Of a DNA stretch of 64,000 bases, positions 16,744-35,564 are shown piece by piece. The translations under genes and the position numbers were made by a program. Position 1 is the stretch's first letter, and every line of letters begins with the position of its first letter. Origin of the DNA: an uncultured Clostridia bacterium. GTDB lineage: Bacteria > Bacillota > Clostridia > Lachnospirales > Anaerotignaceae. The notes under the pieces were generated by a model. It was not told where the DNA came from. It saw only the letters and a program-made list of their open reading frames with translations, and did no database searches. Location: assembly GCA_944384265.1 (NCBI GenBank), contig CALWSR010000002.1, positions 40,361 to 104,360 of the forward strand, written 5' to 3'.

Positions 16744-16912
16744 TTCAAAATCAATGTAATGCTTTCTATAAAATACTATAAATTTTATGAGATTTTTTGT
16801 TATATCTTGTGTAAAGCTCTTTGCTGTGATAGTATAATAATTAGTTCTCTGCCGTAAATTTTTGTTACGGCAGTATTCTTTTCAAGTATGTATATCAAAA
16901 CGGAGGTTAAAT

Positions 16913-18451
16913 ATGAATCAAGAATTAATTATGATTTTAGATTTTGGCGGACAATATAATCAGTTGATTGCCAGACGGGTTCGTGAACATCATGTTTATT
17001 GTGAAATTGTACCATGGAATAAGCCTATAACAGAAATTAAGAAAAAAAATCCAAAGGGTATCATTTTTACAGGCGGCCCCAACAGTGTGTATGATGAAAA
17101 AGCACCCCGTTGCTCAGAAGAATTGTTCCAATTAGGCATTCCTGTCCTTGGTATATGCTATGGCTGTCAGCTTATGGCGTTTACATTGGGCGGAAAGGTT
17201 GGAAATGCCGGCGAAAAAAGTGAATATGGAAAAGCAGAAGTTACATTTAATACCTCCAGTAAGCTTCTAAAAGGCATTGAAAAACAGGAAATTTGTTGGA
17301 TGAGCCACACAGACTATGTGACACAGCTGCCAGAAGGTTTTCAAGTGATTGGCACCACACCCACATGTCCTGCTGCTGCCATTGCATGTGAGGAAAAGAA
17401 ATTTTATGGTGTGCAGTTCCATCCTGAAGTAAACCATACTCCAAAGGGCTCTCAAATGCTTTATAACTTTTTGTATGAAATCTGTGGCTGCAGCGGACAG
17501 TGGACCATGACCAATTACATCGAAGACCAAATTCAATCCATTCGCAATCAAGTGGGAGATGGAAAAGTGCTTTGTGCCCTTTCCGGCGGTGTGGACTCCA
17601 GTGTTGTTGCAGCATTGGTTTCCAAGGCAGTGGGAAAGCAGCTTACTTGTGTTTTTGTAGATAATGGTTTGATGCGTAAAAATGAAGGTGATGAAGTGGA
17701 GGCCGTTTTCAGCAATCTCTTTGATTCTCATTTTGTGCGTGCCAATGCACAGCAACGCTTTTTGACAAAATTAAAGGGTGTGACAGAGCCGGAAAGCAAA
17801 CGAAAAATCATAGGTGAAGAATTTATTCGTGTATTTGAAGATGAAGCTAAAAAAATTGGCAAAGTAAATTATCTTGTGCAAGGCACCATATATCCTGATG
17901 TCATTGAAAGTGGTCTTGGCGACAGTGCTGTTATTAAATCTCATCATAATGTAGGCGGCCTGCCTGATGTTGTAGACTTTGAAGAATTGATTGAGCCTCT
18001 TAGACTGCTCTTTAAGGATGAAGTACGCCAAATGGGTATTGAATTGGGATTGCCAGATACACTTGTTTGGCGGCAGCCCTTCCCTGGTCCCGGACTTGGC
18101 ATTCGTGTCATAGGAGAAGTAACAGAAGATAAATTAGAGATATTGAGAGAAGCAGATGCTATTTTTAGACAAGAAATTGCCCTCGCCGGATTAGACCGCA
18201 GTATCAATCAATATTTTGCAGTGATTACAGATATGAGAAGCGTTGGCGTTATGGGTGACTTTAGAACATATGATTATACCGTTGCACTGCGTGGTGTTAC
18301 CACAACAGACTTCATGACCGCTGATTGGGCTAGAATTCCTTATGAAGTTTTGGATAAGATTTCTGTTCGTATCGTAAATGAGGTAAAACACGTGAATCGT
18401 ATTGTCTATGATATTACCAGTAAACCACCAGCAACCATTGAATGGGAATGA
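16913..18451 (+). CDS. guaA: GMP synthase (glutamine-hydrolysing)
   Basis: [60 protein letters not shown]. Start 16913 after GGAGG. Confidence 0.98.
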
Positions 18452-18656
18452 TTAAAATTTTTTTGAAAACCGCATAAACAGTGGATTTGAGAAAATTTGA
18501 AGGGGTATTTGATAACAAATTGATAATACTGCTAGAAAAGTATTTACTCATAAGTAAGCCAGTGGCTAGCAGGTTATCGTAGTATACTATGAGAAGAAAT
18601 ATGGTCTTACCAAATAAGTGTTATGTATTTGGTAAGACTTTTTTTGTTGTCAAAAG

Positions 18657-19115
18657 TTATTTGTTATTTTTTCCCATATTGGGGTAGGTATAACGCCATT
18701 GGTCATACTGCTTTTTTGTAATTTCGCCAGAGTTCAATTTTTCCCTTTGTTGTTGCCAAGCGGAAACCATATCAAACATAGAAAGATAGGTTGTTCCTTT
18801 GCTTTTATCAAGGCGAATACAGAGTTCTCCATTGATTTCATCAGCATACAAACCGTAAACATCTTCCAATGTGAAAAGTGTATGTATCAGTCCGATGTAA
18901 CTGTCAATATCAGGAACAGCAAGTGCGTGAGGGGAAATCTCAAAAATTTCCGCTAGTGCATTTAGATATTTTTCTTTGGGACTGCGAACACCTTTTTCAT
19001 ATTGTGCAATGCGAACGTCGGCTTGCATATCGTTAAAACCAAGCAACTTTCCTAAATATTTTTGTGTAAAGCCATGAAGTAGTCTAAAATGGTGTATTCT
19101 TTCTCCGATTGCCAT
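18657..19115 (-). CDS. XRE-family HTH regulator of element 1
   Basis: MAIGERIHHFRLLHGFTQKYLG..RIAQYEKGVRSPK HTH; divergent from xis-int. Confidence 0.88.
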   Translation of the reverse strand: MAIGERIHHFRLLHGFTQKYLGKLLGFNDMQADVRIAQYEKGVRSPKEKYLNALAEIFEISPHALAVPDIDSYIGLIHTLFTLEDVYGLYADEINGELCIRLDKSKGTTYLSMFDMVSAWQQQREKLNSGEITKKQYDQWRYTYPNMGKNNK

Positions 19116-19250
19116 AAGTATTCTCTCCTAACTTATATTGATACTTCAGTATAACATAAAAGTATGGGAATCATCAATAAAAAACAATACAAAAAAGTAT
19201 AGTAAGATATAGATATACAAATTAGTATAGTAGTGAATGAAAGTGTAGTT

Positions 19251-19439
19251 ATGGAAAAAATGTCTTTAAAAGTATCAGATATTATGGAGATATTAGATGT
19301 TTCAAAATCTTATACTTATAAATTGATACGAAAGTTAAATAAAGAACTAGAAAAGAAAGGCTGTTTTGTAATAGCTGGACGAATTGACCATGCGTTTTTT
19401 TACGAACATTTTTACGGAACACAAAAAAGGAGAGATTAA
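19251..19439 (+). CDS. Excisionase-like HTH DNA-binding protein
   Basis: LKVSDIMEILDVSKSYTYKLIRKLNKEL..GRI; stop abuts the integrase ATG. Confidence 0.75.
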   Translation: MEKMSLKVSDIMEILDVSKSYTYKLIRKLNKELEKKGCFVIAGRIDHAFFYEHFYGTQKRRD

Positions 19440-20524
19440 ATGCCTGTTTACAAAAATGAAAAAAATAATACTTGGTATGTTATGGCTCGCTACAAAGATT
19501 GGAAAGGCGAACGAAAACAGAAATATCAGAGAGGATTTACTACAAAGCAAGAGGTTTAAAACTGGGAGCGGCAGTTCCAACTTCAGAAAAAATCTGATAT
19601 AGATATGACATTGGAAAGTTTTTGCAAATTGTATGAAAAAGATATGAGACCACGATTGAAAGAAAATACTTGGTTGACAAAAGAAAACATCATACAAAGC
19701 AAAATATTGCCATATTTAGAACAACGTAAGTTGTCGGAAATTACTGCAAAGATATGATTGATTGGCAGAATGAAATGTGAAATCAAAAAGGGAAAACTGG
19801 AAAAGTTGTTTTACCAACCTATCTGAAAACCATTCTTGCACAGTTAAGTTCTATATTTAATCATGCCATTCGTTATTATGACTTATCAATCAATCCAGCG
19901 AAAAAAGCAGGTACAATGGGTATGGAAGAAAGCAAAGAAATGTTGTTCTGAACAAAAGAAGAATACTTGAAATTTGCTGATATGATGATGGACAAACCAC
20001 TTTCCTATTATGCTTTTGAAATGCTTTACTGGTGTGGTATTCGAGAGGGGGAATTACTTGCTTTAACTCCAGCAGATTTTGATTTTGAAAACAGGACAGT
20101 GACAAGCAACAAATCTTATCAGAGGTTAAAAGGGAAAGATGTGATTACTGTTCCTAAAACGAAAAAAAGTAATAGAGTGATAAGAATACCGCAATTTCTA
20201 GCAGAAGAAATGCAGGATTGCTTGAAACTATTTTATAGTTTGAAAGCAAATGACAGGATTTTTTCAGTGACAAAACATTATTTGTTACACAAAATAGATA
20301 GAGGTTCTAAAATTGCTGGAGTAAAAAGGATACGCATACATGACCTCAGACATAGTCATGTTAGTTTATTGATTGATATGGGATTTACTGCTTTTGCGAT
20401 TGGTGGCAGAGTAGGACACGAAAGTGAAAAAATTACATACAGATATGCACATCTGTTTCCATCAAGGCAGGCGGAGATGGCAGATTGTCTTGATTTTGAG
20501 AGAACAGGTGATGATATAAAATAA
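19440..20524 (+). pseudogene. Tyrosine recombinase/integrase pseudogene
   Basis: MPVYKNEKNNTWYV..; in-frame stops near 19557, 19778 and 19948. C-terminal GIREGELLAL and RIHDLRHSH..RVGH..TYRYAHL catalytic motifs. Confidence 0.92.
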
Positions 20525-20551
20525 AATTAAATTAAGGAAAGGAATGTTGTT

Positions 20552-20875
20552 ATGTCAGTCAAAAAAGTAGACCAACAAGGTTGTTGGAGAAGTAAAACAG
20601 TTTCTTTTAGAGTATCTCCAAAAGAAAACAAACAAATTGAAATTGCAGTCAAACTTTCAGGTATGGGTAAGTAAGATTTTATTATTTGTTGCTTACAAAA
20701 AAGAAACATTGAAGTGACAGGAAATCCCAAAGTGTATAAAGCACTCAAAAATCAATTAGAGAGTGTACTGAATGAGCTTTATCGTATTGAAACAGGTAAC
20801 ACAGTATCGCAAGATTGATTGGATACTATCAAATTGATTACTATGACAATGCAAGGCATGAAAAATAGTAATTAG
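20552..20875 (+). pseudogene. MobC-like ribbon-helix-helix protein pseudogene
   Basis: MSVKKVDQQGCWRSKTVSFRVSPKENKQIEIAVKLSGMGK*DF..NPKVYKALKNQL, with two internal stops; not in ORF track. Confidence 0.7.
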
Positions 20876-20900
20876 GAAATGCAAAAAAGGAGGAAAATTT

Positions 20901-22017
20901 ATGAGTAAAAAGATTGCCCCTATGACATCTGCGGCAACAGATAAAGGACAATCCCCAAAAGATAATGTTATTATAACAAGAAATTGTAAAGAAAGCAATC
21001 AGCAAACTACAAAAAAATTTGAAAAGGAGGTGTTGCATACGATTACAATGGAAGAATTATATGATATAGCTTTTCCTCCCAAAATGCCTATTGTTGAGGA
21101 AATGATTTATAATGGTACATATGTACATATCTTTTTGTTGGTGCTCCTAAAGTGGGAAAATCATTTTTTATGGAACAGTTAGGATATCATGTGAGTATGG
21201 GGATTCCTTTGTGGAATTACAAAGTAAATCAAGGCAGTGTGTTATATTTGGCATTAGAAGATGATTTTAGCAGATTGCAAAAACGATTGTCAAAAATGTT
21301 TGGTATGGAAAGTACAAATAAATTTTATTTTACGACTATGTCAAAGTCTTTAAACGAAGGTTTAGAAGAACAGCTTGCTCGCTTCCTGAAAGAATATACT
21401 GACACAAAGTTGATTATGATTGATACACTTCAAAAAATAAGAGAGGTTAGAGGGGATAGATATAGTTACTCTAGTGACTATGATATTGTCAACAAGTTGA
21501 AACAGTTTAGTGATAAACACAATGTTTGTATTTTGGTGGTACATCATACAAGAAAGCTGCAATCAGAAGATAGTTTTGAAATGATTTCAGGTACAAATGG
21601 ACTTTTGGGTGCTGCCGATGGAGCTTTCATTATGCAAAAGAAAAAACGTATAGACAATATTGCTATACTGGATATTGCAGGACGTGACCAACCAGACCAA
21701 AAATTGACACTTGAGTTTGATAGAGAACATTGTATTTGGAATTTTAAAAGGCAGAAACAGAATTGTGGAAAGAACCGCCCAATCCACTTTTGGAAGCTAT
21801 CAACGAATTATTGACAAAAGACAATGCAGAATGGCAAGACACAGCAACAGAATTGATTAAAAAATTACCAGATATGCAGCTTCAAGCCAATGTAATTACA
21901 CGAAAATTGAATATATTAAATAGTCGACTTCTTCAGGAATATGGTATTCAATACGAAAACAAACGTGGACATGAAAGAAAAATTTATTTAAAACATGTGA
22001 TAGATAAAAAAGATTAA
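20901..22017 (+). pseudogene. AAA_25 / RepA-like helicase ATPase, frameshifted
   Basis: Walker A GAPKVGKS split from the N-terminus by an 8-bp tandem duplication GTACATAT near 21115-21130. VLYLALED, IDTLQKIR, VVHHTRK, ISGTNGLLGAADG; second frameshift near 21760. Confidence 0.85.
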
Positions 22018-22107
22018 AAAGTACGTCGATATTTTACATAGTAGAGAGATATAAAAATATCGACGCAACTGACGCATAGCAATATAAAGTAAAAAGGAGA
22101 TGCGAGT

Positions 22108-22338
22108 ATGAAACAAGTACAGATTAGTGAAGAATTGTTTCTATCATTGATGAAATATCATGTTTTGGAATATGATAGTGATAAAGAAAAGATTATAAAG
22201 GGATTGCAACAAAAATTTGATAGTTTACTCAATCGAGAATTGTATACAAAATATAAGACTGCTCTATCAGAAGAAGAAAGGGAAAAGGCAAGACAAAAAT
22301 ATTTGAATAGAAAAGGAATACACTCCAGCTTTCGGTGA
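22108..22338 (+). CDS. Small conserved IME protein (type often labelled 'complexin-2')
   Basis: MKQVQISEELF..LYTKYKTALSEEEREKARQKYL..GI; position after the AAA ATPase matches related Clostridial elements as recalled. Confidence 0.6.
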   Translation: MKQVQISEELFLSLMKYHVLEYDSDKEKIIKGLQQKFDSLLNRELYTKYKTALSEEEREKARQKYLNRKGIHSSFR

Positions 22339-22365
22339 TAAAGAGGTTCCCTTTGATTACGAATG

Positions 22366-22389
22366 ACAGAAACGTGACACGGTTTCTGT
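22366..22389. other. Hairpin, possible oriT-region remnant
   Basis: ACAGAAAC-GTGACACG-GTTTCTGT inverted repeat at the point where a relaxase would normally follow; no relaxase ORF is present. Confidence 0.35.
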
Positions 22390-23659
22390 TTTCTCGTTGA
22401 TAATGGAAATGTTCTTTATCAAAACTATGAAATGTTAAAAATAGCATTTGGAAGTATTGTATGTACAATGCGTTTTAAGGGTAACTATAAAAGAGGTATG
22501 GAATACCAATAAAAGAAAAATAATATTCAGATGGGTTATATTTACAATGCTGTAGGGGAAAATAACAGGGGGTGGAAGGAAAATATATAGGTGGTTATGG
22601 CATTTTACAAGTAGTATTCTTTTTTACAAAATTTTGAGAGTTCAAGAAATATTTTTTTATTTTTTTATCAAATTTTTTACAGAAAACAATTTATTTTTGA
22701 TAGTAAAATTTATATAGTATGACACAAATGAACTTCCAAAAAAAGGAAATGTTACGCCGAAGGCGTTTTACAAATTTTGAAAAAATTTGTATTAAGGGTT
22801 TGGGATTTATCCCAACAAGCTGGAAAAGGATATCCCTTTCCCCTGCTTGCAATCATTGCAAAAATCTTATTGTATACAATTTTTATCATTTCCAATTATT
22901 TTTTAGTTTTATTGATTAAATTTCAAAAACATCCAAAAACTTATGTTTTTTTGAAAAAGTATAATAAAATAGGTGGTATACTTAAACAAATTTTTACAAG
23001 AAATAACAATAAAAACAATAAAAAAGGTGAGGTGTTATTATAAGTGATTATCAATAGGGACAAACAAAAGATTCTATTTATCTTAAAATATGAAATATAT
23101 TTAAGAAGTTTTTGAAATACAAATAAATACTTTCTTATTTAATTAATGGCAAAAATATTTGATAATATTTTTCTATTCGACAAAGATATGATATAATTAT
23201 TCATATAATATCGCTCAAAATCAGGAGGAATAACCAATGATTCGCATCTTTATCTATCATGCTCAGCAAAACCGTCTACAATTTTTACAAAAAGCAGTTA
23301 CGGTTTACTTTCAAAAGTATAAGCATACATACTGTTTGACCGTTTGTGACAAGTATGATGATGCTATGCAAATCTATATGGAATAGAAAAAATGACCACA
23401 TTTTTCTTCTTAATTTTAAGGAGTTTTCCAAAAGAATTCGGTCAATGAGCTGTTTACAAGAGTAGTTTCCCCAAGGTCTTTGGGTATACATAGATGGGTT
23501 GGCAGTACTGCTAGTGGGCGGTAGCAGCCGAATTCTTTTGTGCAGAATATGGTTTGAAAGATTACCAGGAAATCTACTTTCTATGCCGTTGATTTGAAAT
23601 TGGCAGTTGCCCAAGAAGCACTAATCTACTAAACAATTACATCAGAAAAAATGACGGAA

Positions 23660-24017
23660 ATAGAAGAATTTTCTGAACCAGAGGAATTGACAACAAAGGA
23701 GGAATGGGAAGAAGCAATATAGTATCATCACAAAGCCGCTGATTTAGGAGATGTTGCCGCCATGAATAATTTAGATGTATGCTATGAGTATGGTACTGGT
23801 ATAGTGCAGAACTATGAACTATGGGCAAGCAGTACAATGGTATCATAAAGTCGCTAATTGAGGAAATGCTAATGCTATGTTCCATTTAGGCTGGTGCTAT
23901 GAAAGTGGTCAAGGTGTATCTCACGACTATACGCAAGCCATTCAGTGGTATCGTAAAATCGCTGCATTAGGACATATTAAAGCTATGAATAGATTGATGT
24001 TATTAGGGAGGAATTAA
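23660..24017 (+). pseudogene. Degenerate Sel1-repeat gene
   Basis: AI*YHHKAADLGDVAAMNNLDVCYEYGTG, a frameshift, then QWYHKVAN*GNANAMFHLGWCYESGQGVSHDYTQAIQWYRK. Confidence 0.8.
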
Positions 24018-24019
24018 GT

Positions 24020-25561
24020 ATGAATAGAGAAAATAATAATGTTATGCTTCATTTAGATTTACAATGCGACAACTATAATGATATCGTACAAAACTATGCT
24101 AAAGCCGCTGAATCAGGAAATGTTGATGCTATGTTCCATTTAGGCGTGTTTTATGAGTTCGGTATTGGTATAAATCAGGACTATACGCAAGCGGTACAAT
24201 GGTATTGCAAAGCCGTTGATTTGGGAAATACGGCTGCTATGTATCGCTTAGGTTTGTGCTATGAGTATGGTCAAGGTGTAGCACAGGACTATAACCAAGC
24301 AATACAGTGGTATCGTAAAGCTACTGATTTGGGAAATACGGCTGCTATGTGTCGCTTAGGTTTGTGCTATGAGTATGGCCAAGGTGTAGCACAGGACTAT
24401 GACCAAGCGATACAGTGGTACTACAAAGCTGCTGATTTAGAAGATGTTGATGCCATGAACAATTTAGGCCTATGCTATGCTGACGGTCAAGGTGTAGAAC
24501 AAGATTATAGCCAAGCAGCACAGTGGTATCGCAAAGCCGCTGATTTGGGACAGGTTAACGCCATGAACAATTTAGGCGTATGCTATGCTGACGGTCGAGG
24601 TGTAGAACAAGATTATAGCCAAGCGGCACAGTGGTATCGCAAAGCCGCTGATTTGGGAAATGCTACTGCTATGCGTAATTTAGGCCTATGCTATGCTAAG
24701 GGTCAAGGTATAGGACAGGACTATAACCAAGCGATACAATGGTATCACAAAGCCGCTGATTTGGGAGATATTGATGCTATGAACAATTTAGGCGTGTGCT
24801 ATCATTATGGTCAAGGTGTAGCACAGGATTATAACCAAGCAGTACAATGGTATCGCAAAGCTGCTGATTTGGGACAGGTTAACGCCATGAACAATTTAGG
24901 CGAGAGTTATTATTATGGCCAAGGTGTAGCACAGGACTATAGTCAAACGGTACATTGGTGCAGCAAAGCTGCTGATTTGGGAGATGTTGATGCTATGTGC
25001 AATTTAGGCGTATGTTATGCTAAGGGTCAAGGTGTAGCACAGGACTATAATCAAGCGATACAATGGTATCGCAAAGCCGCTGATTTGGGAGATGCTACTG
25101 CCATATACTATTTAGGCATATGCTATGATAATGGTCGAGGTGTAGTACAAGACTATACACAAGCGGCACAGTGGTATCGCAAAGCCGCTGATTTGGGGCA
25201 TACTGATGCTATGTATAATTTAGGATCGTGTTATGATTGTGGTCAAGGTGTAGCACAGGACAATAGTCAAGCAGTACAATGGTATCGCAAAGCCGCTGAT
25301 TTGGGACAGGTTAACGCCATGAACAATTTAGGCGCATGCTATGCTGACGGTCAAGGTGTAGAACAAGATTATAGCCAAGCGGCACAGTGGTATCGCAAAG
25401 CCGCTGATTTGGGACAGATTGATGCTATGTACAATTTAGGTGAGTGCTATGAAAAGGGTCAAGGCGTAGCACAGGACAATAGCCAAGCGATACAATGGTA
25501 TCGCAAAGCTGCTGACTTGGGAAATGATGATGCTCAGGAGGCACTGGAGAGACTGTTGTGA
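24020..25561 (+). CDS. Sel1-like repeat (SLR/TPR) protein with 13 tandem 36-aa repeats plus capping helix
   Basis: Consensus AMxxLGxCYxxGQGVxQDYxQAxQWYRKAADLG repeated 13 times; GGGAGG RBS; no signal peptide seen. Confidence 0.95.
   Translation: MNRENNNVMLHLDLQCDNYNDIVQNYAKAAESGNVDAMFHLGVFYEFGIGINQDYTQAVQWYCKAVDLGNTAAMYRLGLCYEYGQGVAQDYNQAIQWYRKATDLGNTAAMCRLGLCYEYGQGVAQDYDQAIQWYYKAADLEDVDAMNNLGLCYADGQGVEQDYSQAAQWYRKAADLGQVNAMNNLGVCYADGRGVEQDYSQAAQWYRKAADLGNATAMRNLGLCYAKGQGIGQDYNQAIQWYHKAADLGDIDAMNNLGVCYHYGQGVAQDYNQAVQWYRKAADLGQVNAMNNLGESYYYGQGVAQDYSQTVHWCSKAADLGDVDAMCNLGVCYAKGQGVAQDYNQAIQWYRKAADLGDATAIYYLGICYDNGRGVVQDYTQAAQWYRKAADLGHTDAMYNLGSCYDCGQGVAQDNSQAVQWYRKAADLGQVNAMNNLGACYADGQGVEQDYSQAAQWYRKAADLGQIDAMYNLGECYEKGQGVAQDNSQAIQWYRKAADLGNDDAQEALERLL
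24118..25522 (+). repeat. 108-bp coding tandem repeat array (about 13 units)
   Basis: Near-identical DNA blocks such as CGCAAAGCCGCTGATTTGGG and GGTCAAGGTGTAGCACAGGACTAT recur at 108-bp period. Confidence 0.9.
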
Positions 25562-26222
25562 GTGTAATTTATAACATTTTAGTAATGGAAAATATATCAA
25601 CTTGGAAATAAGCAACAGTTGAAACTACTTTTGCCCAAGAAGTAAATTTTTCAAAGATGGAACAATCTTGATGTATTAAAAATACAAATATCACCGTGAT
25701 ATCATTTCAGTGAAGACAGATGTCTCTAGAATAATCATCCTTCAAAAAGATGGTTACATTACAACAACTGACTATTCCTATAAAAAAGTGAATGGCAAAA
25801 GACATTTCCTACAAGCTATTTTAACTCAAAAAGAAAGGATTTTTATGACAAACCGTTATGAAATAATGAAACTCGAGATCGTATTTATGGGCTGTTACGA
25901 TTGTGTGGTGTACTGGTGGAATAGATTCAAATCATACCACCGCCTACGTTGCTTCGTTTGGCTAAAATGAACCCACTTTTCTGAGTATCTATTTGTGCAA
26001 AATAAATTGTATTGTGTTATTATCAATGTAGTGTTATAAAAAGCAATGAAAAATATGTCTAATATGAAGAAATAGATGTTACTTACAATAATATTAGGGT
26101 TAAAAACTAATACAGATAAAAATTGTGTTTTATTTTTTTATTAAAGACTTATTGATGATTTATGATTTAAACATTACTATATACATATACTTGTTAATGT
26201 ATTATAGCTTGGAGAGAATGTT

Positions 26223-26492
26223 ATGAAAAAATGCATAGAGAATAAAAATCAAAGATCGAAAAAAATTATAGAGCAAGTACAAGCAATTAATAGAATGATT
26301 GAGGAAGATATTCCTTGTGAAGATATTTTGTTACAAATCAATGCAGCAAAATCCGCATTGTATAAAGCAGGATAAACAATTTTAGAAAGTTATTTTAAAT
26401 ATTGTATTTCTGAAGGTATGAAATATGGCAACATAGAAGAAACTATGAAGAGTTTTTCAAAAGCAATGGAACGATTTGCAAATATGAAATAG
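26223..26492 (+). pseudogene. CsoR/RcnR-family metal-sensing repressor pseudogene
   Basis: RSKKIIEQVQAINRMIEEDIPCEDILLQINAAKSALYKAG*TILE..YCI, one internal TAA; not in ORF track. Confidence 0.8.
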
Positions 26493-26817
26493 AAAAATAT
26501 ATAAAAATAATCAAGTGATAATACTTTATTGATAACAATTTGATAACACTATTTGGAATAGACCATAGATATAGTATAATAGGAAACAAAAGAAGTCAAA
26601 TAAAACCAAATCTCCCATACAAAACTGTATAGAACTGAATTTCAATTTGAGAGTGGGAATAAACTGAGAGGTCGTAAAAATCCAGTAGTTATGCGGGTTT
26701 GCAGCACTTGAAGAAGTCTTTTGATAACAGTTATATCAAAGTGATTATTATTATAGTCCACTGGCTTGTGGTTAAAAGGATGATAAGAAACGGTTTTTAG
26801 ATATGACAATCCATATT

Positions 26818-26863
26818 AAAACGCCCTTAGCTGTGGGTAATCACTCATAGCTAAGGGCGTTTT
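26818..26863 (-). terminator. Terminator after the TfoX-like gene
   Basis: AAAACGCCCTTAGCT...AGCTAAGGGCGTTTT inverted repeat. Confidence 0.75.
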
Positions 26864-26867
26864 GTCG

Positions 26868-27197
26868 TTAATTTTTGGAGGTGGGTTTCTTTTTTTTCGG
26901 TGCAGGAAGTTCATCGTACATAGAAAGAAACAGATTGCAGAGAAATTCTCTGTTGTCAACATCATCGACTAGGAGCATTTCTTTTGCACCCTCATAGGGC
27001 AATTCATAAGTAACTGTGGGCATAAGGGCGATTGCGGATAGAACAGGATTTACAAGCAAGCGGTTATCATAAATACCGCCTACAATCTCGTCACGGAAAT
27101 AGAGGATATATTCGCCCATCATTGCACGATAGGTAATTCCCTCTAAACCTGATAACTGTTCCAATACAAAGCTTAAATAATCTTTACTTGAAGCCAT
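26868..27197 (-). CDS. TfoX N-terminal domain protein
   Basis: MASSKDYLSFVLEQL..ITYRAMMGEYILYFRDEIVGGIYDNRLLV..PYEGAKEMLLVD. Start at 27197. Confidence 0.8.
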   Translation of the reverse strand: MASSKDYLSFVLEQLSGLEGITYRAMMGEYILYFRDEIVGGIYDNRLLVNPVLSAIALMPTVTYELPYEGAKEMLLVDDVDNREFLCNLFLSMYDELPAPKKKKPTSKN

Positions 27198-27198
27198 G

Positions 27199-27737
27199 CT
27201 ACACCTGCTTTCCATCATCTGTTTTGAGTTGGTCTTTGAATTGCTCCACCAAAGTGTCGCTCCATTTCTGTGATGGTACTTTCGCCCAAAGCTGTGTGGT
27301 GTCATACTTTGGATAGTGGCAACGCCATTGGTTATACTGTTCTCTGTTGATTTCGTCAGTAGATAGTTTATCCGCCTGCTCTTTCCAAGCATAGAACACT
27401 TTCAGTAACTGGGGAGCTTCCTTGCCTTTATCCTTGTTGATTTTCAGACAGACTTCACCGTCTGTTTCGCTGACAGTCAAACCGTAAATGTCCTCAAGGG
27501 TAAATAAGGTGTACATCAGTCCGATATAGCTGTCAATGTTGGGAACATCAAGAGCCTGCGTTTCAACATCAAGTACCTGTGCCAATGCAGCCGTTAGGTC
27601 TGCTTTTTGTTTGCGTGAGCCTGTTTCATACTGTGCCAACTACACATCAGCACTTTTCTCAGAAAAGCCGACAGCAGTGCCGAGATACTTCTGTGTCATT
27701 CCACGCATAAGTCTGAAAAACTCTCACCGATAGCCAT
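27199..27737 (-). pseudogene. XRE regulator pseudogene (paralogue of 18657-19115)
   Basis: MAIGE, then a deletion/frameshift, then FFRLMRGMTQKYLG..ADV*LAQYETG..PNIDSYIGLMYTLFTLEDIYGL. Confidence 0.85.
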
Positions 27738-27950
27738 AATATTTCACTCCTTGGGTATGTATCTGCAAATAATATAGCAGATATGTTTAAGAAAAACCAA
27801 TAGAAAACGAAACAAAAAAGTTTAATATTTTCTTGCAATCCACTTGGCAAAACAAATATGCTTAGTATAACGATGTAGAGTTAAGCAAATATACTTAAAT
27901 ATACAAAACTGAATCACTGTCTGAATGAGATATAACTTTGCGAAAACAGT

Positions 27951-28057
27951 CGGGGTCCCCGAAAAGTCGAATGACTTTTTGAGGAGAGAAGACGCAACGG
28001 AATGAGTGAACTTTTCGTGTTTATACGGAAATAAACGATATGAAGTTTGTGACGACG
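27951..28057 (+). ncRNA. Candidate structured RNA / repeated Clostridial motif between xre and xis
   Basis: GGGGTCCCC, AAAAGTC-gaat-GACTTTT and TTTCGTG-ttta-TACGGAA stems; resembles from memory a motif seen in gut Clostridiales; family not verified. Confidence 0.4.
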
Positions 28058-28143
28058 AGAGCAATGCAACGCCGCCGTAGAAGGGACAGGAACAACATTC
28101 AGGAAGAACGGCAATTTGAAAGCTTTATGAAAGGACTGACGAT

Positions 28144-28325
28144 ATGGAAAACAGATTTATCCGTGCTGATGATGTAGCAACAAAGTGTATCAAATCCCTA
28201 TGCCTATAAGCTCATCAGAAAACTGAACGAAGAATGAAAAACACAGGGTTTTATTACGATTGCAGGGCGTGTCAACCACCAGTATTTTTATGAAAGGCTT
28301 TACGGAGCAGGAAAGGAGATGAAGC
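28144..28325 (+). pseudogene. Excisionase-like pseudogene (paralogue of 19251-19439)
   Basis: MENRFIRADDVA..AYKLIRKLNEE*KTQGFITIAGRVNHQY, with a deletion and a stop. Confidence 0.75.
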
Positions 28326-28327
28326 AA

Positions 28328-28459
28328 ATGCCCGTATTCAAAAATGAGGACAACAGTACTTGGTATGTGATGGCGAGATATGTGAACTGGAAAGGCAAAC
28401 ACGAGAAGCATCTAAGTATTCTGGAATTTAAGCAGCAAGCGGCCCTGATGGTCTGCTGA
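28328..28459 (+). pseudogene. Integrase N-terminal stub (43 codons)
   Basis: MPVFKNEDNSTWYVMARYVNWKG closely matches the start of integrase 1, then diverges abruptly. Confidence 0.8.
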
Positions 28460-28559
28460 CCGAGGCGAGGGATAAAAGAAAATAGACTTGTTCATAATTT
28501 TATGTTATACTTTTCTCAAAGTAAAAGAAGGAAAAATGGAAATTTGTGAGGAAAAGTAA

Positions 28560-29012
28560 ATGAAAAGTTTTGACTATATCACATTGAGAGAAAGAGCAGA
28601 ATTAAAAAATTGTGCTGCGGAATGGTTTCATTCTAAATGGGGTGTGCCAGCGGAAGCCTATCTGGAATGTATGGAGGCTTATCTAAAAAAAGAAACAGAG
28701 TATGGTTGGTATCTCTGTATGGACGGTGACAATATTGTCGGCGGTATGGGCGTAATCGAAAATGACTTTCATAACAGGAAAGAGCTTACCCCAAATATCT
28801 GCGCAGTCTATACAGAAAAAGACTATCGCTGCAAGGGAATCGCAGGTCATCTGCTCAATATGGTGGTAGATGATATGAAATCCAAAGGCATCTCGCCTAT
28901 TTATCTGGTCACAGATCATTCCAACTTTTATGAGCGATACGGCTGGGAATTTCTATGTATGGTACAGGGCGATGGTGAATCCAATATGACCAGAATGTAT
29001 ATCCATCGATAA
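28560..29012 (+). CDS. GNAT family N-acetyltransferase
   Basis: ICAVYTEKDYRCKGIAGHLL acetyl-CoA motif, FYERYGWEF. Confidence 0.88.
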   Translation: MKSFDYITLRERAELKNCAAEWFHSKWGVPAEAYLECMEAYLKKETEYGWYLCMDGDNIVGGMGVIENDFHNRKELTPNICAVYTEKDYRCKGIAGHLLNMVVDDMKSKGISPIYLVTDHSNFYERYGWEFLCMVQGDGESNMTRMYIHR

Positions 29013-29036
29013 ATTTCCAAGGAGAGTAACCCCAGC

Positions 29037-29066
29037 CAGGGCGGTCAATGGCCATTGACCGCCCTG
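29037..29066. repeat. Perfect 30-bp palindrome
   Basis: CAGGGCGGTCAATGG|CCATTGACCGCCCTG. Confidence 0.9.
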
Positions 29067-29877
29067 CCCTTTCTGCGTTCGACGGGAGCTTCCCTCAATT
29101 TGATGAAAATTTTAATAATGGCCTGTTCATGGCTTTGAAGCCTTTTCAATTCCTCGATTTTTGTGATGTTATTTTGATATTAACTGCCCCAAATAATAGG
29201 CAAAATAATTAGCATATTTGAGAATGCTTTGCTTTTGAAATCACACTAAGTATACTCCCCTCCCCCATACCTGAATTTACGAAGCAATGTAAATGAAGCC
29301 AGTATTTATATGAGTTTCAAACAAATTTATTTAGCAACGGAAAACATTTTCTGAAATTACCCACATCATTATTTTACATTCATTAAACCGTACTGATTTT
29401 CAAAAGGAATTGGAATTCAGTACGGTTTTTTTATTTTCTTACGGATTCTTTTACAATTTTGTTATAAAAATATCATTGATTGCCTGCGATGGAGCTTTGA
29501 TACAACCATTGGAGATAGCAAGCGAATCCTCTCTCCTTTTCTCATACAGTTTTTTGTGATTTGGCATTGCTCCCGTTTTGCAGATTACTCTTGCTATGCT
29601 TAAACCACACCTGCAATAATGAAATATCAGGCTAGCAGATTTCCTCTTTGATAGCAGTAATTTTTAGACCATATAAGTCCTATACATCAAAAAAATATGC
29701 AAAAGCTCTGTATCGCTGTATTTATTTGGAACAGTAATGGCATTAGCACTGATTTTAAATATGTTATAGCTTCAATTTATCTATTGGCTTGAAAAAAAGT
29801 TTATATCAATTTTTTAAAATTAAGTTCTATATTGAATAAAAGAATATTATTTTTTTAAGCAAAACAATAAAATAGAA

Positions 29878-29919
29878 TTGACTTTTTAAACGATTTAAAA
29901 TATAATTAGTATACTAATT
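29878..29919 (+). promoter_or_regulatory. SigA promoter with overlapping palindromic operator (likely MarR autoregulation)
   Basis: TTGACT, 17 bp, TATAAT (29878-29906); perfect palindrome AATTAGTATACTAATT at 29904-29919. Confidence 0.75.
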
Positions 29920-29948
29920 GTTATAATACTAATAAATAAGGAGTCAAC

Positions 29949-30371
29949 ATGAACTTTACATTTCATTATCTGCTTATGGCCAACCACCTTATGCTGCAAA
30001 AACATTTTTTTCATCGTATTAAGGAATTAAAGCTAACGCTTGGGCAGCCAAAAGTATTGGATTATTTACAACAGAATAATGGAGCAATGCAAAAAGACAT
30101 TGCCAAAGGCTGCCATATTGAGCCTGCCTCTCTTTCCACCATTTTAAATGGTATGGAAAAGCATGGTCTTATTACAAGAAATATAGATAAACAAAATAGA
30201 AGAAATATCAATATTTTTATGACAGAGAAAGGAAAAGAAATTTACAAGCAGATTGAACAAGAATTTATAGCAATCGAAAAAAAGGCATTTTATAACTTTT
30301 CAGAGAAGGAGGTAAATCAATTAACAGAATATATGATAAGGCTTCATAACAATTTGGAGGAACCATTATGA
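29949..30371 (+). CDS. MarR-family transcriptional regulator
   Basis: LTLGQPKVLDYL..QKDIAKGCHIEPASLSTILNGMEKHGLITR..DKQNRR..TEKG. Confidence 0.92.
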   Translation: MNFTFHYLLMANHLMLQKHFFHRIKELKLTLGQPKVLDYLQQNNGAMQKDIAKGCHIEPASLSTILNGMEKHGLITRNIDKQNRRNINIFMTEKGKEIYKQIEQEFIAIEKKAFYNFSEKEVNQLTEYMIRLHNNLEEPL

Positions 30372-31036
30372 GTAAAAAAGAAATAGCAAAGCGATATATT
30401 TTATTTACCATTAGTTTGTTTTTTTCAGCACTGGGGGTTGCCGTAACAAAACATGGAGCATTAGGAGTATCTCCTATTTCATCTATTGCAAATGTTTTCA
30501 GTATAAAATTTATTAGTATTTCATTGGGTATGTGGCTGATATTATGGAATTGTATATTAATAATTGGACAAATCATTATATTAAGAAAAGATTTTAAAAG
30601 GATACAGCTGCTCCAAATACCATTATCATTTTTATTTGGATATTTTACAGATTTTGGTATGTGGTGTGTATCTTCTATTACTGTAAGCAGCTACATAGTG
30701 CAGCTATTATTTGTATTGATTGGTGTTGTTATACTGGGTTTTGGAATATCATTGTCTGTCATAGCAAATGTGATTATGAATTCCGGTGAAGCATTTGTAA
30801 AAGCAATTTCCGATAAAAGCGGTAAAAATTTTGGCAATATTAAAATTGGTTTTGATATATGCAATGTAATTTTATCGCTTATACTATCTATGTTACTTTT
30901 TAATGGTACAATCATTGGCACAAGAGAAGGCACAATCATTACAGCGGTATTTACAGGAATGATTGTCAAAATTTTTACCAAAATGTTAAATTGCCCTTTG
31001 CAAAAAGTATTAGCCACAAAAGCAGTTACTTGCTGA
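30368..31036 (+). CDS. YczE/YyaS/YitT-like membrane protein
   Basis: ALGVSPISS, GFDICNV, IGTREGTIITAVFTG; translationally coupled to marR. Confidence 0.8.
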   Translation: MSKKEIAKRYILFTISLFFSALGVAVTKHGALGVSPISSIANVFSIKFISISLGMWLILWNCILIIGQIIILRKDFKRIQLLQIPLSFLFGYFTDFGMWCVSSITVSSYIVQLLFVLIGVVILGFGISLSVIANVIMNSGEAFVKAISDKSGKNFGNIKIGFDICNVILSLILSMLLFNGTIIGTREGTIITAVFTGMIVKIFTKMLNCPLQKVLATKAVTC

Positions 31037-31093: not shown

Positions 31094-32659
<1,566 letters not shown>

Positions 32660-32747
32660 CTATTTTTTTTAATCTTTATTGAAATCCAGCTTTTTTGGTA
32701 TGCTTTTTTTCACTGTATTTTCAAACATCATTTTTGTATGTTTGTTT

Positions 32748-34625
32748 TCATGTTCTTTTTTCATTAATATCAATTATTTTATCCCCTGCTTGCACAACAT
32801 CATTTTCATTGACTGTCACTTTTAAATCTACATCATCAAAATTCGTAACCAATATCGGTGTTACAACAGAATACCCTTCTTTTTTGATATTTTCTATATC
32901 AAACTCTAACAACACATCTCCTTTTTTCACAATGGCATCTTGTTCTATTTTTAATGTAAAATATTTTCCATTTAACATAACTGTGTTTAATCCTACATGA
33001 ATTAACATTTCTATACCATCTACGGAGCGTAATCCCACAGCGTGTTTCGATGGGAATATGGCAACAGCCTCTCCGTCAAATGGGGCATAAACCCTTCCTT
33101 CATTTGGAAGTATAGCCAATCCTTTACCCGTTGCACCACTTGCAAACACTTCGTCTTCCACATTTTCTAATGTAATGGCCTCTCCGCTTACCGGTGCAAA
33201 TACTTCAGAATGTTTTTTTTCTGTTACAACATTATTTATGACAGGAGATTCTTTGATTACAGCACTTGTGGCTTCCTTTTCCAATACAGGCTCAAAATCT
33301 GCTTTATCATCACTTGTAATCCCCCAAAAATAAGTTAATATCATTCCTGCTGCCAAAGCTGCTGCAATACCAATGAGAAATGGAATAAATGGTGTATATG
33401 TCATCATTGCTATGGAAAATACATTATGAAAAACATAAGAATCCATTGTTACACCAAAAAAGCCATTGATTGCTCCCCCAATGCCTCCGGCGATTGCAAC
33501 AATGAGCATCATTCGTTTGTAACGCATAATAATACCATACAAAATCGGTTCTGTTACGCCTGCCAAAAATCCTGTTAAAAGAGTTGGACCTGCAATTTCT
33601 TTAATTTTGGAATGTTTTTTTCCTTTTAAATAAGCACCGATTGCAATGCCAAGCTCTGCATAAACACAACAAACAGCCGCCCCTTCAATCACATCTCCAT
33701 TAAATTCTGTAAGATTTTGCAGTGAAATAGGTGTAAATCCCCAATGAAGTCCCAGTATTGTTAAAAATGGGTATGCTGCCCCAAGTACCACACCGGCAAT
33801 CACACCGCTAATGCTAAACAATTTCATTACCACAGCAGAAATTACATTGCCAATGATTGTGCCAAAAGGTCCAAATACCAGTGCTGCTAGTGGTACCAGA
33901 ACAATAATACAAATCATAGATACCAAAAACATTTGTAATTCCTGTTTTATTATTTTTTTCAAAAATCTGTCTAAATAAGCATATATAAAAGAAATAATAA
34001 ATATAGGAAATATTGTTGTTGCATAATCCACAGCAGTCAAGGGAATGCCAAAAAAGTTTGTTCCTTCCTGCCCTATCAATGCCGTAAATGACGGCTCCAG
34101 CAGTGCTGCGCCTAAAGCTCCGCCAACATAAGCATTTGCACCAAACTGCTTTGATAATGTAATACCTAAAAATATAGGCATAAAATAAAATACAGCATTG
34201 CCAGCAGCAGATAATACAGCATAAGTAGCACCGGTATCTGCCATCATTCCAAACTGAACAAATACAGTCAGCAGAGCTTTTACCATACCAGCACCAGCCA
34301 TAATGGGTATCAGAGGCGAAAAGGCACCAGAAATAATTTTTAATATTGACATATTGCCACTTTTTTCCCTATCCTTCTTTAAATGAGCAATTTTTAAAAC
34401 TGCTTCATAATAAGAACTTACCTTTGGACCAATCACCACCTGAAATTGTCCTCCGCTTACTACAACAGATAATACATAAGAAAGCCCTTCTAATGCTGTT
34501 TTATCTGCTTTTTTATTGTCTTTTAATTCAAATCTTAAACGTGTAGCACAATGTACTAAACTGTTTATGTTACTGCTTCCGCCAACCAATGTTAAAATTT
34601 CCTTTGCTTCCTTTTCAAACATCAT
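32748..34625 (-). CDS. bglF: PTS beta-glucoside transporter IIBCA
   Basis: HCATRLRF (IIB Cys), GVTEPILYG (IIC), HAVG..EMLIHVGLNTV (IIA). Start at 34625. Confidence 0.93.
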   Translation of the reverse strand: MMFEKEAKEILTLVGGSSNINSLVHCATRLRFELKDNKKADKTALEGLSYVLSVVVSGGQFQVVIGPKVSSYYEAVLKIAHLKKDREKSGNMSILKIISGAFSPLIPIMAGAGMVKALLTVFVQFGMMADTGATYAVLSAAGNAVFYFMPIFLGITLSKQFGANAYVGGALGAALLEPSFTALIGQEGTNFFGIPLTAVDYATTIFPIFIISFIYAYLDRFLKKIIKQELQMFLVSMICIIVLVPLAALVFGPFGTIIGNVISAVVMKLFSISGVIAGVVLGAAYPFLTILGLHWGFTPISLQNLTEFNGDVIEGAAVCCVYAELGIAIGAYLKGKKHSKIKEIAGPTLLTGFLAGVTEPILYGIIMRYKRMMLIVAIAGGIGGAINGFFGVTMDSYVFHNVFSIAMMTYTPFIPFLIGIAAALAAGMILTYFWGITSDDKADFEPVLEKEATSAVIKESPVINNVVTEKKHSEVFAPVSGEAITLENVEDEVFASGATGKGLAILPNEGRVYAPFDGEAVAIFPSKHAVGLRSVDGIEMLIHVGLNTVMLNGKYFTLKIEQDAIVKKGDVLLEFDIENIKKEGYSVVTPILVTNFDDVDLKVTVNENDVVQAGDKIIDINEKRT

Positions 34626-34645
34626 ATTTCCCCCTTTTTTACAAA

Positions 34646-34712
34646 ATAAAAACCTAAGCAATATGAGGTACTCATACAGCTTAGGTTACGCCTTTATCAT
34701 TCAGTAACGCCC
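34646..34712 (-). promoter_or_regulatory. RAT site 2 plus terminator ahead of the PTS gene
   Basis: GGGCGTTACTGAATGATAAAGGCGTAACC, then stem AACCTAAG..CTTAGGTT with a T run. Confidence 0.8.
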
Positions 34713-35544: not shown

Positions 35545-35564
35545 ACTCTCCTCCTGTTTCAACA

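What the first reader, a model, noticed from the sequence alone, without database searches (positions are those of the whole stretch)
24020..25561. Intact Sel1 solenoid with a fixed scaffold and code-like variable positions
Seen: across 13 repeats the scaffold is nearly invariant, while three sites vary. After AM/AI: FH,YR,CR,NN,NN,RN,NN,NN,CN,YY,YN,NN,YN. After LG: V,L,L,L,V,L,V,E,V,I,S,A,E. After Y: EF,EY,EY,AD,AD,AK,HY,YY,AK,DN,DC,AD,EK. Non-adjacent units share long identical DNA blocks, and this is the only large intact gene in a decayed element. Inference: a modular binding protein under selection, diversified by repeat shuffling (loosely analogous to TALE/VLR logic).
Basis: partly seen in the sequence, partly recalled or inferred. 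Interest (0 to 1): 0.62.

Follow-up and report, generated by a model that had tools for sequence, protein, structure and literature searches.

The report
Ordinary Sel1 repeat protein, unit-number alleles
This is a real, intact gene for an ordinary Sel1-type helical repeat protein carried on a decayed mobile island of a chicken-gut bacterium; its "code-like" variable sites are the sites that vary in all Sel1 proteins, and strains differ only in which whole repeats they have lost.

Summary
The ORF at 24020-25561 is real. However, 12 of 36 columns vary, not three sites.

The protein is acidic (pI 4.4) and has no signal peptide. It folds as a standard Sel1-like-repeat (SLR) superhelix. The variable columns lie on one face of each helix, mostly helix A, which lines the concave groove in solved SLR structures.

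The same columns, with the same residue preferences, vary across 704 units from 90 unrelated Sel1 proteins (Spearman 0.77). Mean internal identity of 70% is not unusual. pN/pS is 0.14 on the scaffold and about 1 at variable columns.

The gene is the last cargo of a broken integrase/AAA_25 island behind guaA, and a three-times-broken small Sel1 gene lies directly upstream. No ortholog turned up anywhere.

In 20 chicken-gut metagenome runs from 7 studies there is not one SNP. Ten of 19 informative runs lack unit-specific pieces; two of the three missing blocks are bounded by a 40-nt exact repeat. That points to recombinational loss of whole units.

Verdict: a new member of a known family. Concerted evolution and repeat-number polymorphism are supported. 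A TALE/VLR-like code is not.

The parts
24020..25561 (+). Sel1-like-repeat (SLR) protein gene. 513 aa, pI 4.4, no signal peptide or TM segment. It has an N-terminal cap (aa 1-27), 13 units of 36 aa and a C-terminal capping helix.
   Evidence: ORF; Pfam Sel1 x13, E 5.9e-162; AF2 pLDDT 85 with repeating 13-res helix / 7-res loop / 13-res helix / 3-res loop; Foldseek top hits are SLR crystal structures 6OK3, 4BWR, 8SXQ, 6DEH and 1OUV; pI and hydropathy.
24101..25504 (+). Array of 13 in-phase 108-nt units. Unit n starts at 24101+108(n-1).
   Evidence: TRF period 108, 13.3 copies, 0% indels; unit table; DNA identity matrix 67-98%.
24006..24011 (+). GGGAGG ribosome-binding site, 8 nt before the ATG.
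   Evidence: Read directly from the sequence.
23651..24018 (+). Small upstream Sel1 pseudogene (about 2.5 units with its own C-terminal cap). It is broken by TAG at 23720, a frameshift near 23815-23825 and TGA at 23859. Its stop is 1 nt before the ATG of the large gene.
   Evidence: tblastn fragments with stops; three-frame translation; sequence; a 46-aa Sel1 fragment is called in another assembly.
24539..24578 (+). First copy of a 40-nt exact block that occurs three times (also 24863-24902 and 25295-25334). It is the likely substrate for the 3-unit and 4-unit deletions.
   Evidence: Exact in-register matches. The pieces missing in X15/X16/X17 and in X18/X19 are bounded by these blocks.
24863..24902 (+). 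Second copy of the 40-nt exact block.
25295..25334 (+). Third copy of the 40-nt exact block.
24524..24658 (+). Conversion tract of 135 nt, identical to 25280-25414 except for 2 bases (exact blocks of 55 and 61 nt). Units 5 and 12 are 98% identical.
16862..18451 (+). guaA (GMP synthase). The island is inserted at its 3' end.
   Evidence: Pfam GATase + GMP_synt_C; 90-91% identical orthologs that also carry an island at this site.
18657..22338 (.). Decayed island backbone: HTH gene 18657-19115 (-), integrase remnants 19434-20524 in two frames, AAA_25 (RepA-like) remnants 20907-22023 in three frames, and a conserved 76-aa ORF at 22108-22338.
   Evidence: Pfam; tblastx and tblastn against the intact islands of L013/L014.
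26223..26490 (+). CsoR/RcnR-like repressor gene broken by TAA at 26373. It is the last cargo before an att-like junction (TTGATAAC words at 26529-26550, compare 18509-18530).
   Evidence: Pfam Trns_repr_metal on the 50-aa fragment; sequence.

Best explanation
The gene encodes a cytoplasmic, stand-alone SLR adaptor protein: an acidic right-handed alpha-superhelix of 13 units plus caps.

Shown:
- The fold.
- The 13/7/13/3 helix-loop architecture.
- The scaffold columns (A10, L14, G15, Y18, G21, G23, Q26, D27, Q30, W34, K1, A2) are kept by purifying selection.
- Variation sits on one face of each helix, twice as much on helix A as on helix B.

Inferred from solved SLR structures: helix A lines the concave groove, so columns 12, 13, 16, 19 and 20 form the ligand surface. 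Asn at column 13, kept in 9 of 13 units, would be the backbone-anchoring Asn that holds an extended peptide, as in EsiB, HcpC and TPR proteins. The protein would therefore bind a long unfolded or extended protein segment and act as a scaffold, not as an enzyme.

The gene arrived as cargo of a guaA-targeting integrase/AAA_25 island that has since decayed. It is probably still maintained and transcribed at a low level.

The array evolves in concert. Units exchange sequence (unit 5 and unit 12), and homologous recombination between exact 40-nt blocks removes whole units in frame. This gives population alleles with fewer than 13 units (about 10 and about 9 for the two clearest classes), with no point variation. 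The partner and the physiological role are unknown.
For: - Family and fold.
- No export signal, pI 4.4.
- One-face variation: entropy moment 0.61 for helix A (0 of 20,000 permutations reached it) and 0.68 for helix B (p 1e-4). Helix A carries 14.9 bits against 7.8.
- The concave face is formed by the first helices, is less conserved than the convex face, and an Asn anchors the backbone of a bound peptide tail in EsiB/c5321, whose repeats have the same 13/7/13/3 architecture (PMC3851747). LceB has the same geometry (PMC10868440).
- Purifying selection on the scaffold: pN/pS 0.14.
- Intactness against about 1 lesion per 330-380 nt in neighbours.
- RBS.
- Metatranscriptome contigs with 0-1 mismatches cover 23911-24071, 24104-24343, 24201-24408 and 24388-24547 in 3 runs of 2 studies.
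- Alleles: 9 runs (X1-X8, X14) at 7-34x hold every unit-specific unitig. X15, X16 and X17 at 7-11x lack 24576-24827. X18 and X19 (5x and 12x) lack 24912-25247. X9-X13 (up to 31x) lack the 25168-25304 piece. All laid pieces show 0 differences.
Against: - No partner gene, no ortholog and no conserved neighbourhood exist to anchor a function.
- The RNA signal is only 2-4x deep, and DNA carry-over cannot be excluded.
- No promoter or terminator stands out.
- The allele structures are inferred from missing k=31 unitigs, not from reads spanning the junctions. A replacement by conversion cannot be told from a deletion, especially for the X9-X13 class.
- In LceB the conserved patches are on the convex face, not the concave one, so the binding face of SLR proteins is not universal.
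- I had no coordinates of the model. Assignment of sites to faces rests on secondary structure, helical periodicity and published geometry.
Confidence: 0.55

Rival explanations
1. The gene is a relic in decay. It no longer has a function and simply has not yet acquired a stop. In-frame unit losses are the first visible step of erosion.
For: Every other mobility or cargo gene of the island is broken. All alleles found differ only by lacking unit-specific sequence, never by new sequence. No conserved partner or ortholog exists. None of 31 related islands carries Sel1 cargo.
Against: The chance of 1542 nt staying open at the neighbours' lesion density is about 0.01-0.02. The RBS is intact and there are traces of RNA. 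No run shows a frameshift or stop.
Confidence: 0.2
2. The gene is a diversifying recognition module. Unit gain, loss and shuffling re-assort a small set of specificity residues under positive selection, like the highly internally conserved repeats of fungal NLRs or VLR cassettes.
For: Unit-content polymorphism with zero point variation. A conversion tract joins units 5 and 12. Variation lies on the face expected to bind ligand. The gene sits on a mobile island.
Against: pN/pS at the variable columns is 0.66-1.03, not above 1. The same columns and residues vary family-wide. Mean internal identity is 70%, below the 85% criterion (PMC4986451). There is no NTPase or effector domain in the protein or as a remnant in the flanks. 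No new unit combinations were seen, only absences.
Confidence: 0.08
3. The protein is an exported host-interaction factor (a 'eukaryote-like' SLR protein), like LpnE, EsiB or the Helicobacter Hcp proteins, acting on chicken gut cells or mucus.
For: The closest solved relatives are such proteins. The organism is a gut commensal. Repeat-number variation is typical of surface or host-facing proteins.
Against: There is no signal peptide, lipobox or TM segment: the maximum 19-residue hydropathy is 0.88. The genome's other Sel1 protein does have a lipoprotein-type N-terminus, so export signals would be recognisable here. There is one Cys per unit, not the disulfide pair of Hcp proteins.
Confidence: 0.08
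4. The array is an assembly artefact, or the 'alleles' are coverage drop-outs.
For: The data come from short-read MAG assemblies. Unitigs at k=31 cannot order units across 40-61-nt exact blocks.
Against: The exact blocks are at most 61 nt. The identical protein is on a second, differently sized contig. Runs at 7-9x recover all pieces, whereas runs at 10-31x lack defined blocks, and the same block is missing in different studies.
Confidence: 0.03

Closest known systems
EsiB / c5321 of uropathogenic E. coli (PDB 4BWR) and the Oxalobacter formigenes Sel1 protein 6OK3
   Same: Long stand-alone SLR arrays (11 units in EsiB). EsiB has the same 13-residue helix / 7-residue loop / 13-residue helix / 3-residue loop repeat, close to the family consensus. 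Sequence matches: E 1e-93 (6OK3) and 2e-82 (4BWR); 34-38% identity; Foldseek E 1e-25 and 6e-23. In EsiB the concave face is built by the first helices and is the less conserved face, and an Asn anchors a bound peptide.
   Different: EsiB is described as a vaccine antigen of a Gram-negative pathogen. This protein has no export signal, is in a Gram-positive-type anaerobe, is island cargo, and has higher internal identity. There is no orthology.
Helicobacter cysteine-rich proteins HcpB/HcpC (PDB 1KLX, 1OUV)
   Same: SLR fold, peptide binding in the concave groove, and lineage-specific evolution of the family (PMC1941758).
   Different: From my own knowledge, Hcp proteins are secreted and have a disulfide-forming Cys pair in each repeat. 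Here there is one Cys per unit (column 17, 11 of 13 units) and no signal peptide.
Highly internally conserved (HIC) TPR/ANK/WD repeats of fungal NLRs (Dyrka et al. 2014, PMC4986451; Podospora het-d/het-e, PMC12222747)
   Different: HIC is defined as at least 85% identity over at least 100 aa. Here the mean is 70%, and only units 4, 5 and 12 are that close. HIC repeats are fused to NOD NTPases and effector domains, and their sites test positive for diversifying selection. Here there is no NTPase or effector, and pN/pS is at most about 1.
TAL effectors
   Same: Tandem helical repeats of similar length (34 vs 36 aa) with a variable residue pair at positions 12-13 in one possible register.
   Different: From my own knowledge, TALE repeats are almost identical outside the RVD, form a basic superhelix that tracks the DNA major groove, and carry secretion, nuclear-localisation and activation modules. 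This protein has 12 variable columns, a net charge of -28 and SLR geometry of about 7-8 units per turn and about 50 A diameter as in EsiB.

Membership tests
Sel1-like repeat (SLR) proteins, Pfam PF08238 | Tandem units of 36-44 aa matching the Sel1 profile above the curated cut-off. | tested here: met
   520.9 bits against a cut-off of 30.7, with 13 stretches. All 13 units score individually in the genome scan.
Sel1-like repeat (SLR) proteins, Pfam PF08238 | Antiparallel helix pair per unit stacking into a right-handed superhelix. | tested here: met
   The AF2 model (pLDDT 85) has a strict 13/7/13/3 pattern. Foldseek probability is 1.00 to 6OK3, 4BWR, 8SXQ, 6DEH and 1OUV. Handedness itself was not measured, because no coordinates were available.
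Helicobacter cysteine-rich proteins (Hcp) | Signal peptide and a disulfide-forming cysteine pair in each repeat. | tested here: not met
   One Cys per unit (column 17). There is no hydrophobic N-terminus.
HIC repeat domains of NLR/STAND receptors | Internal repeat identity of at least 85% over at least 100 aa. | tested here: not met
   Mean pairwise unit identity is 70% and the maximum is 94%. Criterion from PMC4986451.
HIC repeat domains of NLR/STAND receptors | Fusion to a NOD/STAND NTPase and an effector domain. | tested here: not met
   Pfam finds only Sel1/TPR-type families above their cut-offs. There are no domain remnants in the flanks. PADLOC gives only a spurious 21.8-bit PtuA match.
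HIC repeat domains of NLR/STAND receptors | Repeat-number polymorphism between individuals. | tested here: met
   Ten of 19 informative runs lack defined unit-specific unitigs at adequate depth, against 9 complete runs. This is inferred from unitigs, not from spanning reads.
HIC repeat domains of NLR/STAND receptors | Positive diversifying selection at concave-face sites. | tested here: inconclusive
   Nei-Gojobori counts between units give pN/pS 0.66 (five helix-A sites) and 1.03 (12 variable sites) against 0.14 for the scaffold. There are only 13 units, they are saturated, and recombination is not modelled.
TAL effector-type nucleic-acid readers | Near-identical repeats differing essentially at one di-residue, and a basic DNA-binding surface. 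| tested here: not met
   12 variable columns. pI 4.4, net charge -28.
Targets of diversity-generating retroelements | A nearby reverse transcriptase with a template repeat matching the variable region, and adenine-specific allelic variation. | tested here: not met
   The two RT genes of the genome are on other contigs, and their loci have no match to the array beyond 13 nt. No point variation was seen in 20 runs.

The most novel reading that the evidence does not exclude
A stand-alone SLR array carried by a mobile island could be a bacterial counterpart of the recombination-diversified repeat sensors of fungal NLRs. Loss, gain and conversion of whole units would re-assort the concave-face residues (columns 12/13/16/19/20). 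That would change which invading or host protein is bound, for example as a decoy or sensor in phage or mobile-element conflict. The unit-content alleles seen in chicken-gut populations would then be kept by selection and would not be mere repeat instability.
Probability: 0.06. Interest if true: 0.6.

Novelty: new member of a known kind. Interest (0 to 1): 0.2.

Why it matters
The practical lesson is that a fixed scaffold with a few variable columns is the normal signature of Sel1/TPR-type solenoids. It should not be read as a code unless three things hold: variation exceeds the family background, dN/dS exceeds 1, and alleles differ at those sites.

What remains mildly useful is a natural example, in a widespread chicken-gut commensal, of a repeat gene whose only population variation is in-frame loss of whole units between exact 40-nt blocks. 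Because the alleles appear to be subsets of one known 13-unit sequence, they would make a convenient natural series for asking how many SLR units, and which ones, are needed for binding once a partner is known. The gene is also a marker for strain typing in poultry metagenomes.

Tried and rejected
- **Orthologs.** The 5.8-billion protein search gave only generic Sel1 proteins, at most 59% identical and mostly fused to kinase, caspase, trypsin-like, TIR or PEGA domains. Forty relatives gave only unrelated Sel1 genes at 62-70% DNA identity. The scan of 185,579 species gave a best hit of 55%, in an Akkermansia MAG. The phage and plasmid collections gave no match to 19000-31000.
- **Sel1 as recurrent cargo of this island family.** None of 31 related AAA_25 loci has a Sel1 motif within 10 kb.
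- **Lost N-terminal effector domain.** Stop-to-stop frames in 22880-23660 and 25570-26220 give no credible Pfam match.
- **Defence-system membership.** PADLOC gave nothing meaningful. All NCBIfam matches (MerG, MotX, AlgK, ExoR) are far below their cut-offs.
- **DGR.** Rejected. One Pfam call on a 33-aa piece of L139 was wasted.
- **TALE-like reading.** Rejected on charge and on the number of variable columns.
- **Structured RNA in the island.** No Rfam match.
- **Promoter and terminator scan.** Uninformative: 25 sites found against 18 expected.
- **Kaur et al. 2020 (PMC7159879).** I had recalled that it described near-identical diversifying repeats. The text does not say this for Sel1, so I do not cite it for that.
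Full report
**1. What is in the sequence**

The ORF at 24020-25561 (+) is open for 513 codons. A GGGAGG sits 8 nt before its ATG. Tandem Repeats Finder reports a 108-nt period, 13.3 copies, 79% matches and no indels over 24101-25534. Pfam finds 13 Sel1 stretches, E 5.9e-162.

- after A-M/I: FH, YR, CR, NN, NN, RN, NN, NN, CN, YY, YN, NN, YN;
- after L-G: V, L, L, L, V, L, V, E, V, I, S, A, E;
- after Y: EF, EY, EY, AD, AD, AK, HY, YY, AK, DN, DC, AD, EK.

These are not the only variable places. In a register where unit position 1 is the K of KAADLG, columns 7, 8, 9, 25, 29, 32 and 36 vary about as much. Twelve of 36 columns have entropy of at least 1.35 bits, and twelve columns are invariant.

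In DNA the units are 67-98% identical. Units 5 and 12, seven units apart, differ at 2 of 108 bases. Exact in-register blocks of 61, 55, 45 and 40 nt link non-adjacent units, and one 40-nt block occurs three times, at 24539, 24863 and 25295.

**2. Surroundings**

The window comes from a chicken-gut member of the Anaerotignum-related clostridia. The guaA product is 87-91% identical to those of 'Lachnospiraceae bacterium 46-61', mouse-gut MAGs and Anaerotignum. Every DNA run holding the gene whose origin is shown is labelled chicken gut or gut metagenome; some labels are coded. A same-genus genome of 2,924,599 bases in one contig matches the length of the Clostridium sp. ASF356 chromosome.

guaA (16862-18451) is followed by an integrative island. 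Its backbone is an HTH gene, a tyrosine integrase, a small ORF, an AAA_25 RepA-like gene, a 76-aa ORF and a conserved non-coding block. Two relatives have the same backbone at the same site, with an intact 377-aa (L013) or 371-aa (L014) AAA_25 gene and, in L013, an intact 359-aa integrase, but different cargo.

In the window the island is broken:
- The integrase is spread over two frames and the AAA_25 gene over three.
- A CsoR-like cargo gene has an internal TAA.

Directly upstream of the large gene lies a small Sel1 gene (23651-24018) with its own C-terminal cap. It is broken by TAG, a frameshift and TGA.

Small intact genes (HTH, GNAT, MarR, DUF6198) are also present.

The neighbours carry at least 8 lesions in about 2.85 kb. 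At that density the chance that 1542 nt stay open is about 0.01-0.02. This is a rough figure, because the genes need not have been neutral for the same time.

**3. The protein**

It has no hydrophobic N-terminus or TM segment. Its pI is 4.4 and its net charge is -28.

AlphaFold2 without an alignment gives pLDDT 85 and a strictly repeating pattern: 13-residue helix, 7-residue loop, 13-residue helix, 3-residue loop. This is the architecture tabulated for the EsiB/c5321 crystal structure (PMC3851747).

The best sequence and fold matches are SLR structures: 6OK3, 4BWR, 8SXQ (LceB), 6DEH (LpnE) and 1OUV (HcpC).

Helix A is columns 8-20. Helix B is columns 28-36 followed by 1-4.
- On a helical wheel the entropy is concentrated in a 0-140 degree arc on both helices.
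- The moment is 0.61 for helix A (no permutation of 20,000 reached it) and 0.68 for helix B (p 1e-4).
- Helix A carries twice the variation of helix B, 14.9 against 7.8 bits.

In EsiB and LceB the first helices build the concave inner surface and the second helices the convex one. In EsiB the concave face is the less conserved one, and an Asn of helix 1 hydrogen-bonds the backbone of a bound peptide tail, as in HcpC and TPR proteins. That Asn is the sixth residue of its helix in EsiB. The sixth residue of helix A here is column 13, which is Asn in 9 of 13 units. This mapping is my inference from the published helix boundaries.

Further variable sites lie in the inter-repeat loop and on the outer helix. 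I could not compute accessibilities because the model's coordinates are not exposed.

**4. Is the pattern special?**

No, on three counts.

First, I extracted 704 canonical 36-aa units from 90 of the 120 best database hits, which are unrelated proteins from many phyla.
- Their per-column entropy correlates with this protein's at Spearman 0.77 (p 3e-8).
- The preferred residues are the same: column 12 Y/N/F/C, column 13 N, column 16 V/L/F/Y, column 19 E/A/Y/D, column 20 N/K/Y/D.
- The 'scaffold' is thus the family consensus, and the 'code positions' are the family's usual variable positions.

Second, mean internal identity is 70%. Seventeen of the 90 proteins score higher, and the median is 62%. 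That is below the 85% over 100 aa used to define highly internally conserved repeats in fungal NLRs (PMC4986451).

Third, Nei-Gojobori counts between units give the following:
- Scaffold columns: pS 0.36 and pN 0.05, ratio 0.14. The units are old and the scaffold is held by purifying selection.
- The twelve variable columns: ratio 1.03.
- The five helix-A columns: ratio 0.66.

This fits unconstrained or weakly constrained surface positions. It does not demonstrate positive selection. The test is crude: 13 units, saturation, and no model of recombination.

**5. Alleles**

Twenty DNA runs from seven studies hold 70-94% of the sampled words of the locus. I laid Logan unitigs of all 20 on 23400-25900. 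Every laid piece, including the pseudogene with its lesions, has 0 differences from the window. At the point-mutation level the alleles are invariant, and so are the flanks. This population is simply very uniform.

Unit content, however, differs:

| Class | Runs | Flank depth | What is missing |
|---|---|---|---|
| Complete | X1-X8, X14 (9 runs) | 7-34x | nothing; all unit-specific unitigs present |
| B | X15, X16, X17 (two studies) | 7-11x | 24576-24827 (units 5-7) |
| C | X18, X19 (two studies) | 5x and 12x | 24912-25247 (units 8-11) |
| D | X9-X13 (three studies) | up to 31x | the 25168-25304 piece (unit 11) |

- X17 also lacks the 25168-25304 piece. X20 is too shallow to judge.
- Runs of class D also have a neighbouring unitig that runs 2 nt further. 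That is expected if a branch of the assembly graph is absent.
- The first two missing blocks are bounded exactly by the three-copy 40-nt block. RecA-type recombination there would delete 324 or 432 nt in frame and create no new 31-mer. This explains why no junction was reported.
- The missing units have unique sequences, so the 13-unit form is ancestral to the shorter ones.

What varies is loss, or possibly conversion, of units. This is the generic behaviour of tandem repeats and is not evidence of selection.

**6. Other tests**

- No ortholog exists in 40 relatives, in 185,579 species representatives or in the 5.8-billion protein set. The best matches (55-59%) reflect the shared consensus and mostly carry N-terminal kinase, caspase, trypsin-like, TIR or PEGA domains that are absent here.
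- The flanks hold no remnant of such a domain.
- None of 31 related islands carries Sel1 cargo.
- Sister species have other, syntenic Sel1 genes (a 1560-1585-aa giant and a 394-499-aa gene) that this genome lacks. Its only other Sel1 protein has a lipoprotein-like N-terminus.
- PADLOC and NCBIfam give no family membership.
- A DGR is excluded.
- Three metatranscriptomes from two studies contain low-depth contigs matching the unique 5' part of the gene. One contig spans the pseudogene-gene junction. This suggests weak co-transcription from upstream but does not exclude DNA carry-over.

**7. Explanation and verdict**

The best-supported reading is an ordinary cytoplasmic SLR adaptor. It would bind an extended protein segment in its concave groove, was brought in as island cargo, and is still maintained. 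It evolves in concert, with frequent in-frame unit loss.

- **Shown:** the fold and the selection on the scaffold.
- **Shown indirectly:** the unit polymorphism.
- **Inferred:** the binding mode and any role.

The closest known system by working logic is the HIC repeat domain of fungal NLRs. Membership fails on identity level and on the absence of NTPase and effector domains, and it is inconclusive on positive selection. By family the protein is a plain member of PF08238, so I class it as a new member of a known kind, of low interest. The boldest reading not excluded is a recombination-diversified recognition module of a mobile element, which I put at about 6%.

Noticed in passing
window 22735-22880 (compare L013 16490-16621, L014 16386-16564): A conserved, hairpin-rich non-coding block of about 150 nt lies at the end of the island backbone, just before the variable cargo. 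It includes ACGCCGAAGGCGT and GGAAAGGGATATCCCTTTCC inside CAAGC..GCTTG. It is shared by the related guaA islands, has no Rfam match, and is covered by a metatranscriptome contig (22703-22930). It could be a replication or transfer origin, an att core or a small RNA.
   Followed up: partly
L119, L122, L124-L127 (NZ_CP097810.1, Clostridium sp. ASF356) and L105-L131: The integrase/AAA_25 island family is multi-copy in this genus. There are at least 6 copies in the ASF356 chromosome and several in mouse-gut MAGs, each with different cargo.
   Followed up: partly
window 26223-26490: A CsoR/RcnR-type metal-sensing repressor gene is split by a TAA at 26373. It has no metal-efflux partner nearby.
   Followed up: no
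window 27232-27735 and 29445-29765 (-): Second and third paralogous copies or remnants of the island's HTH gene, plus TTGATAAC word pairs at 18509-18530 and 26529-26550. These fit serial accretion of related elements at guaA.
   Followed up: partly
L094 4481-9163, L096 3607-8364, L097 3672-8348, L100 2266-7023; L095 3804-6792, L098 4605-5789, L099 4259-5551: Sister species carry a syntenic 1558-1585-aa Sel1 giant, and a 394-499-aa Sel1 gene (duplicated in ASF356) next to a conserved 202-aa gene near leuS. Searches of the window's own genome found neither.
   Followed up: no
window 25613-25890: A metatranscriptome contig (depth 6.5, the highest in the 5-kb stretch) covers the apparently non-coding region just downstream of the Sel1 gene. 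It overlaps a doubtful 86-aa GTG ORF at 25710-25970.
   Followed up: no
window 31094-35577 versus L014 16765-20942: The RpiR / GH1 6-phospho-beta-glucosidase / PTS block that follows the island in a relative is inverted relative to guaA in this genome.
   Followed up: no
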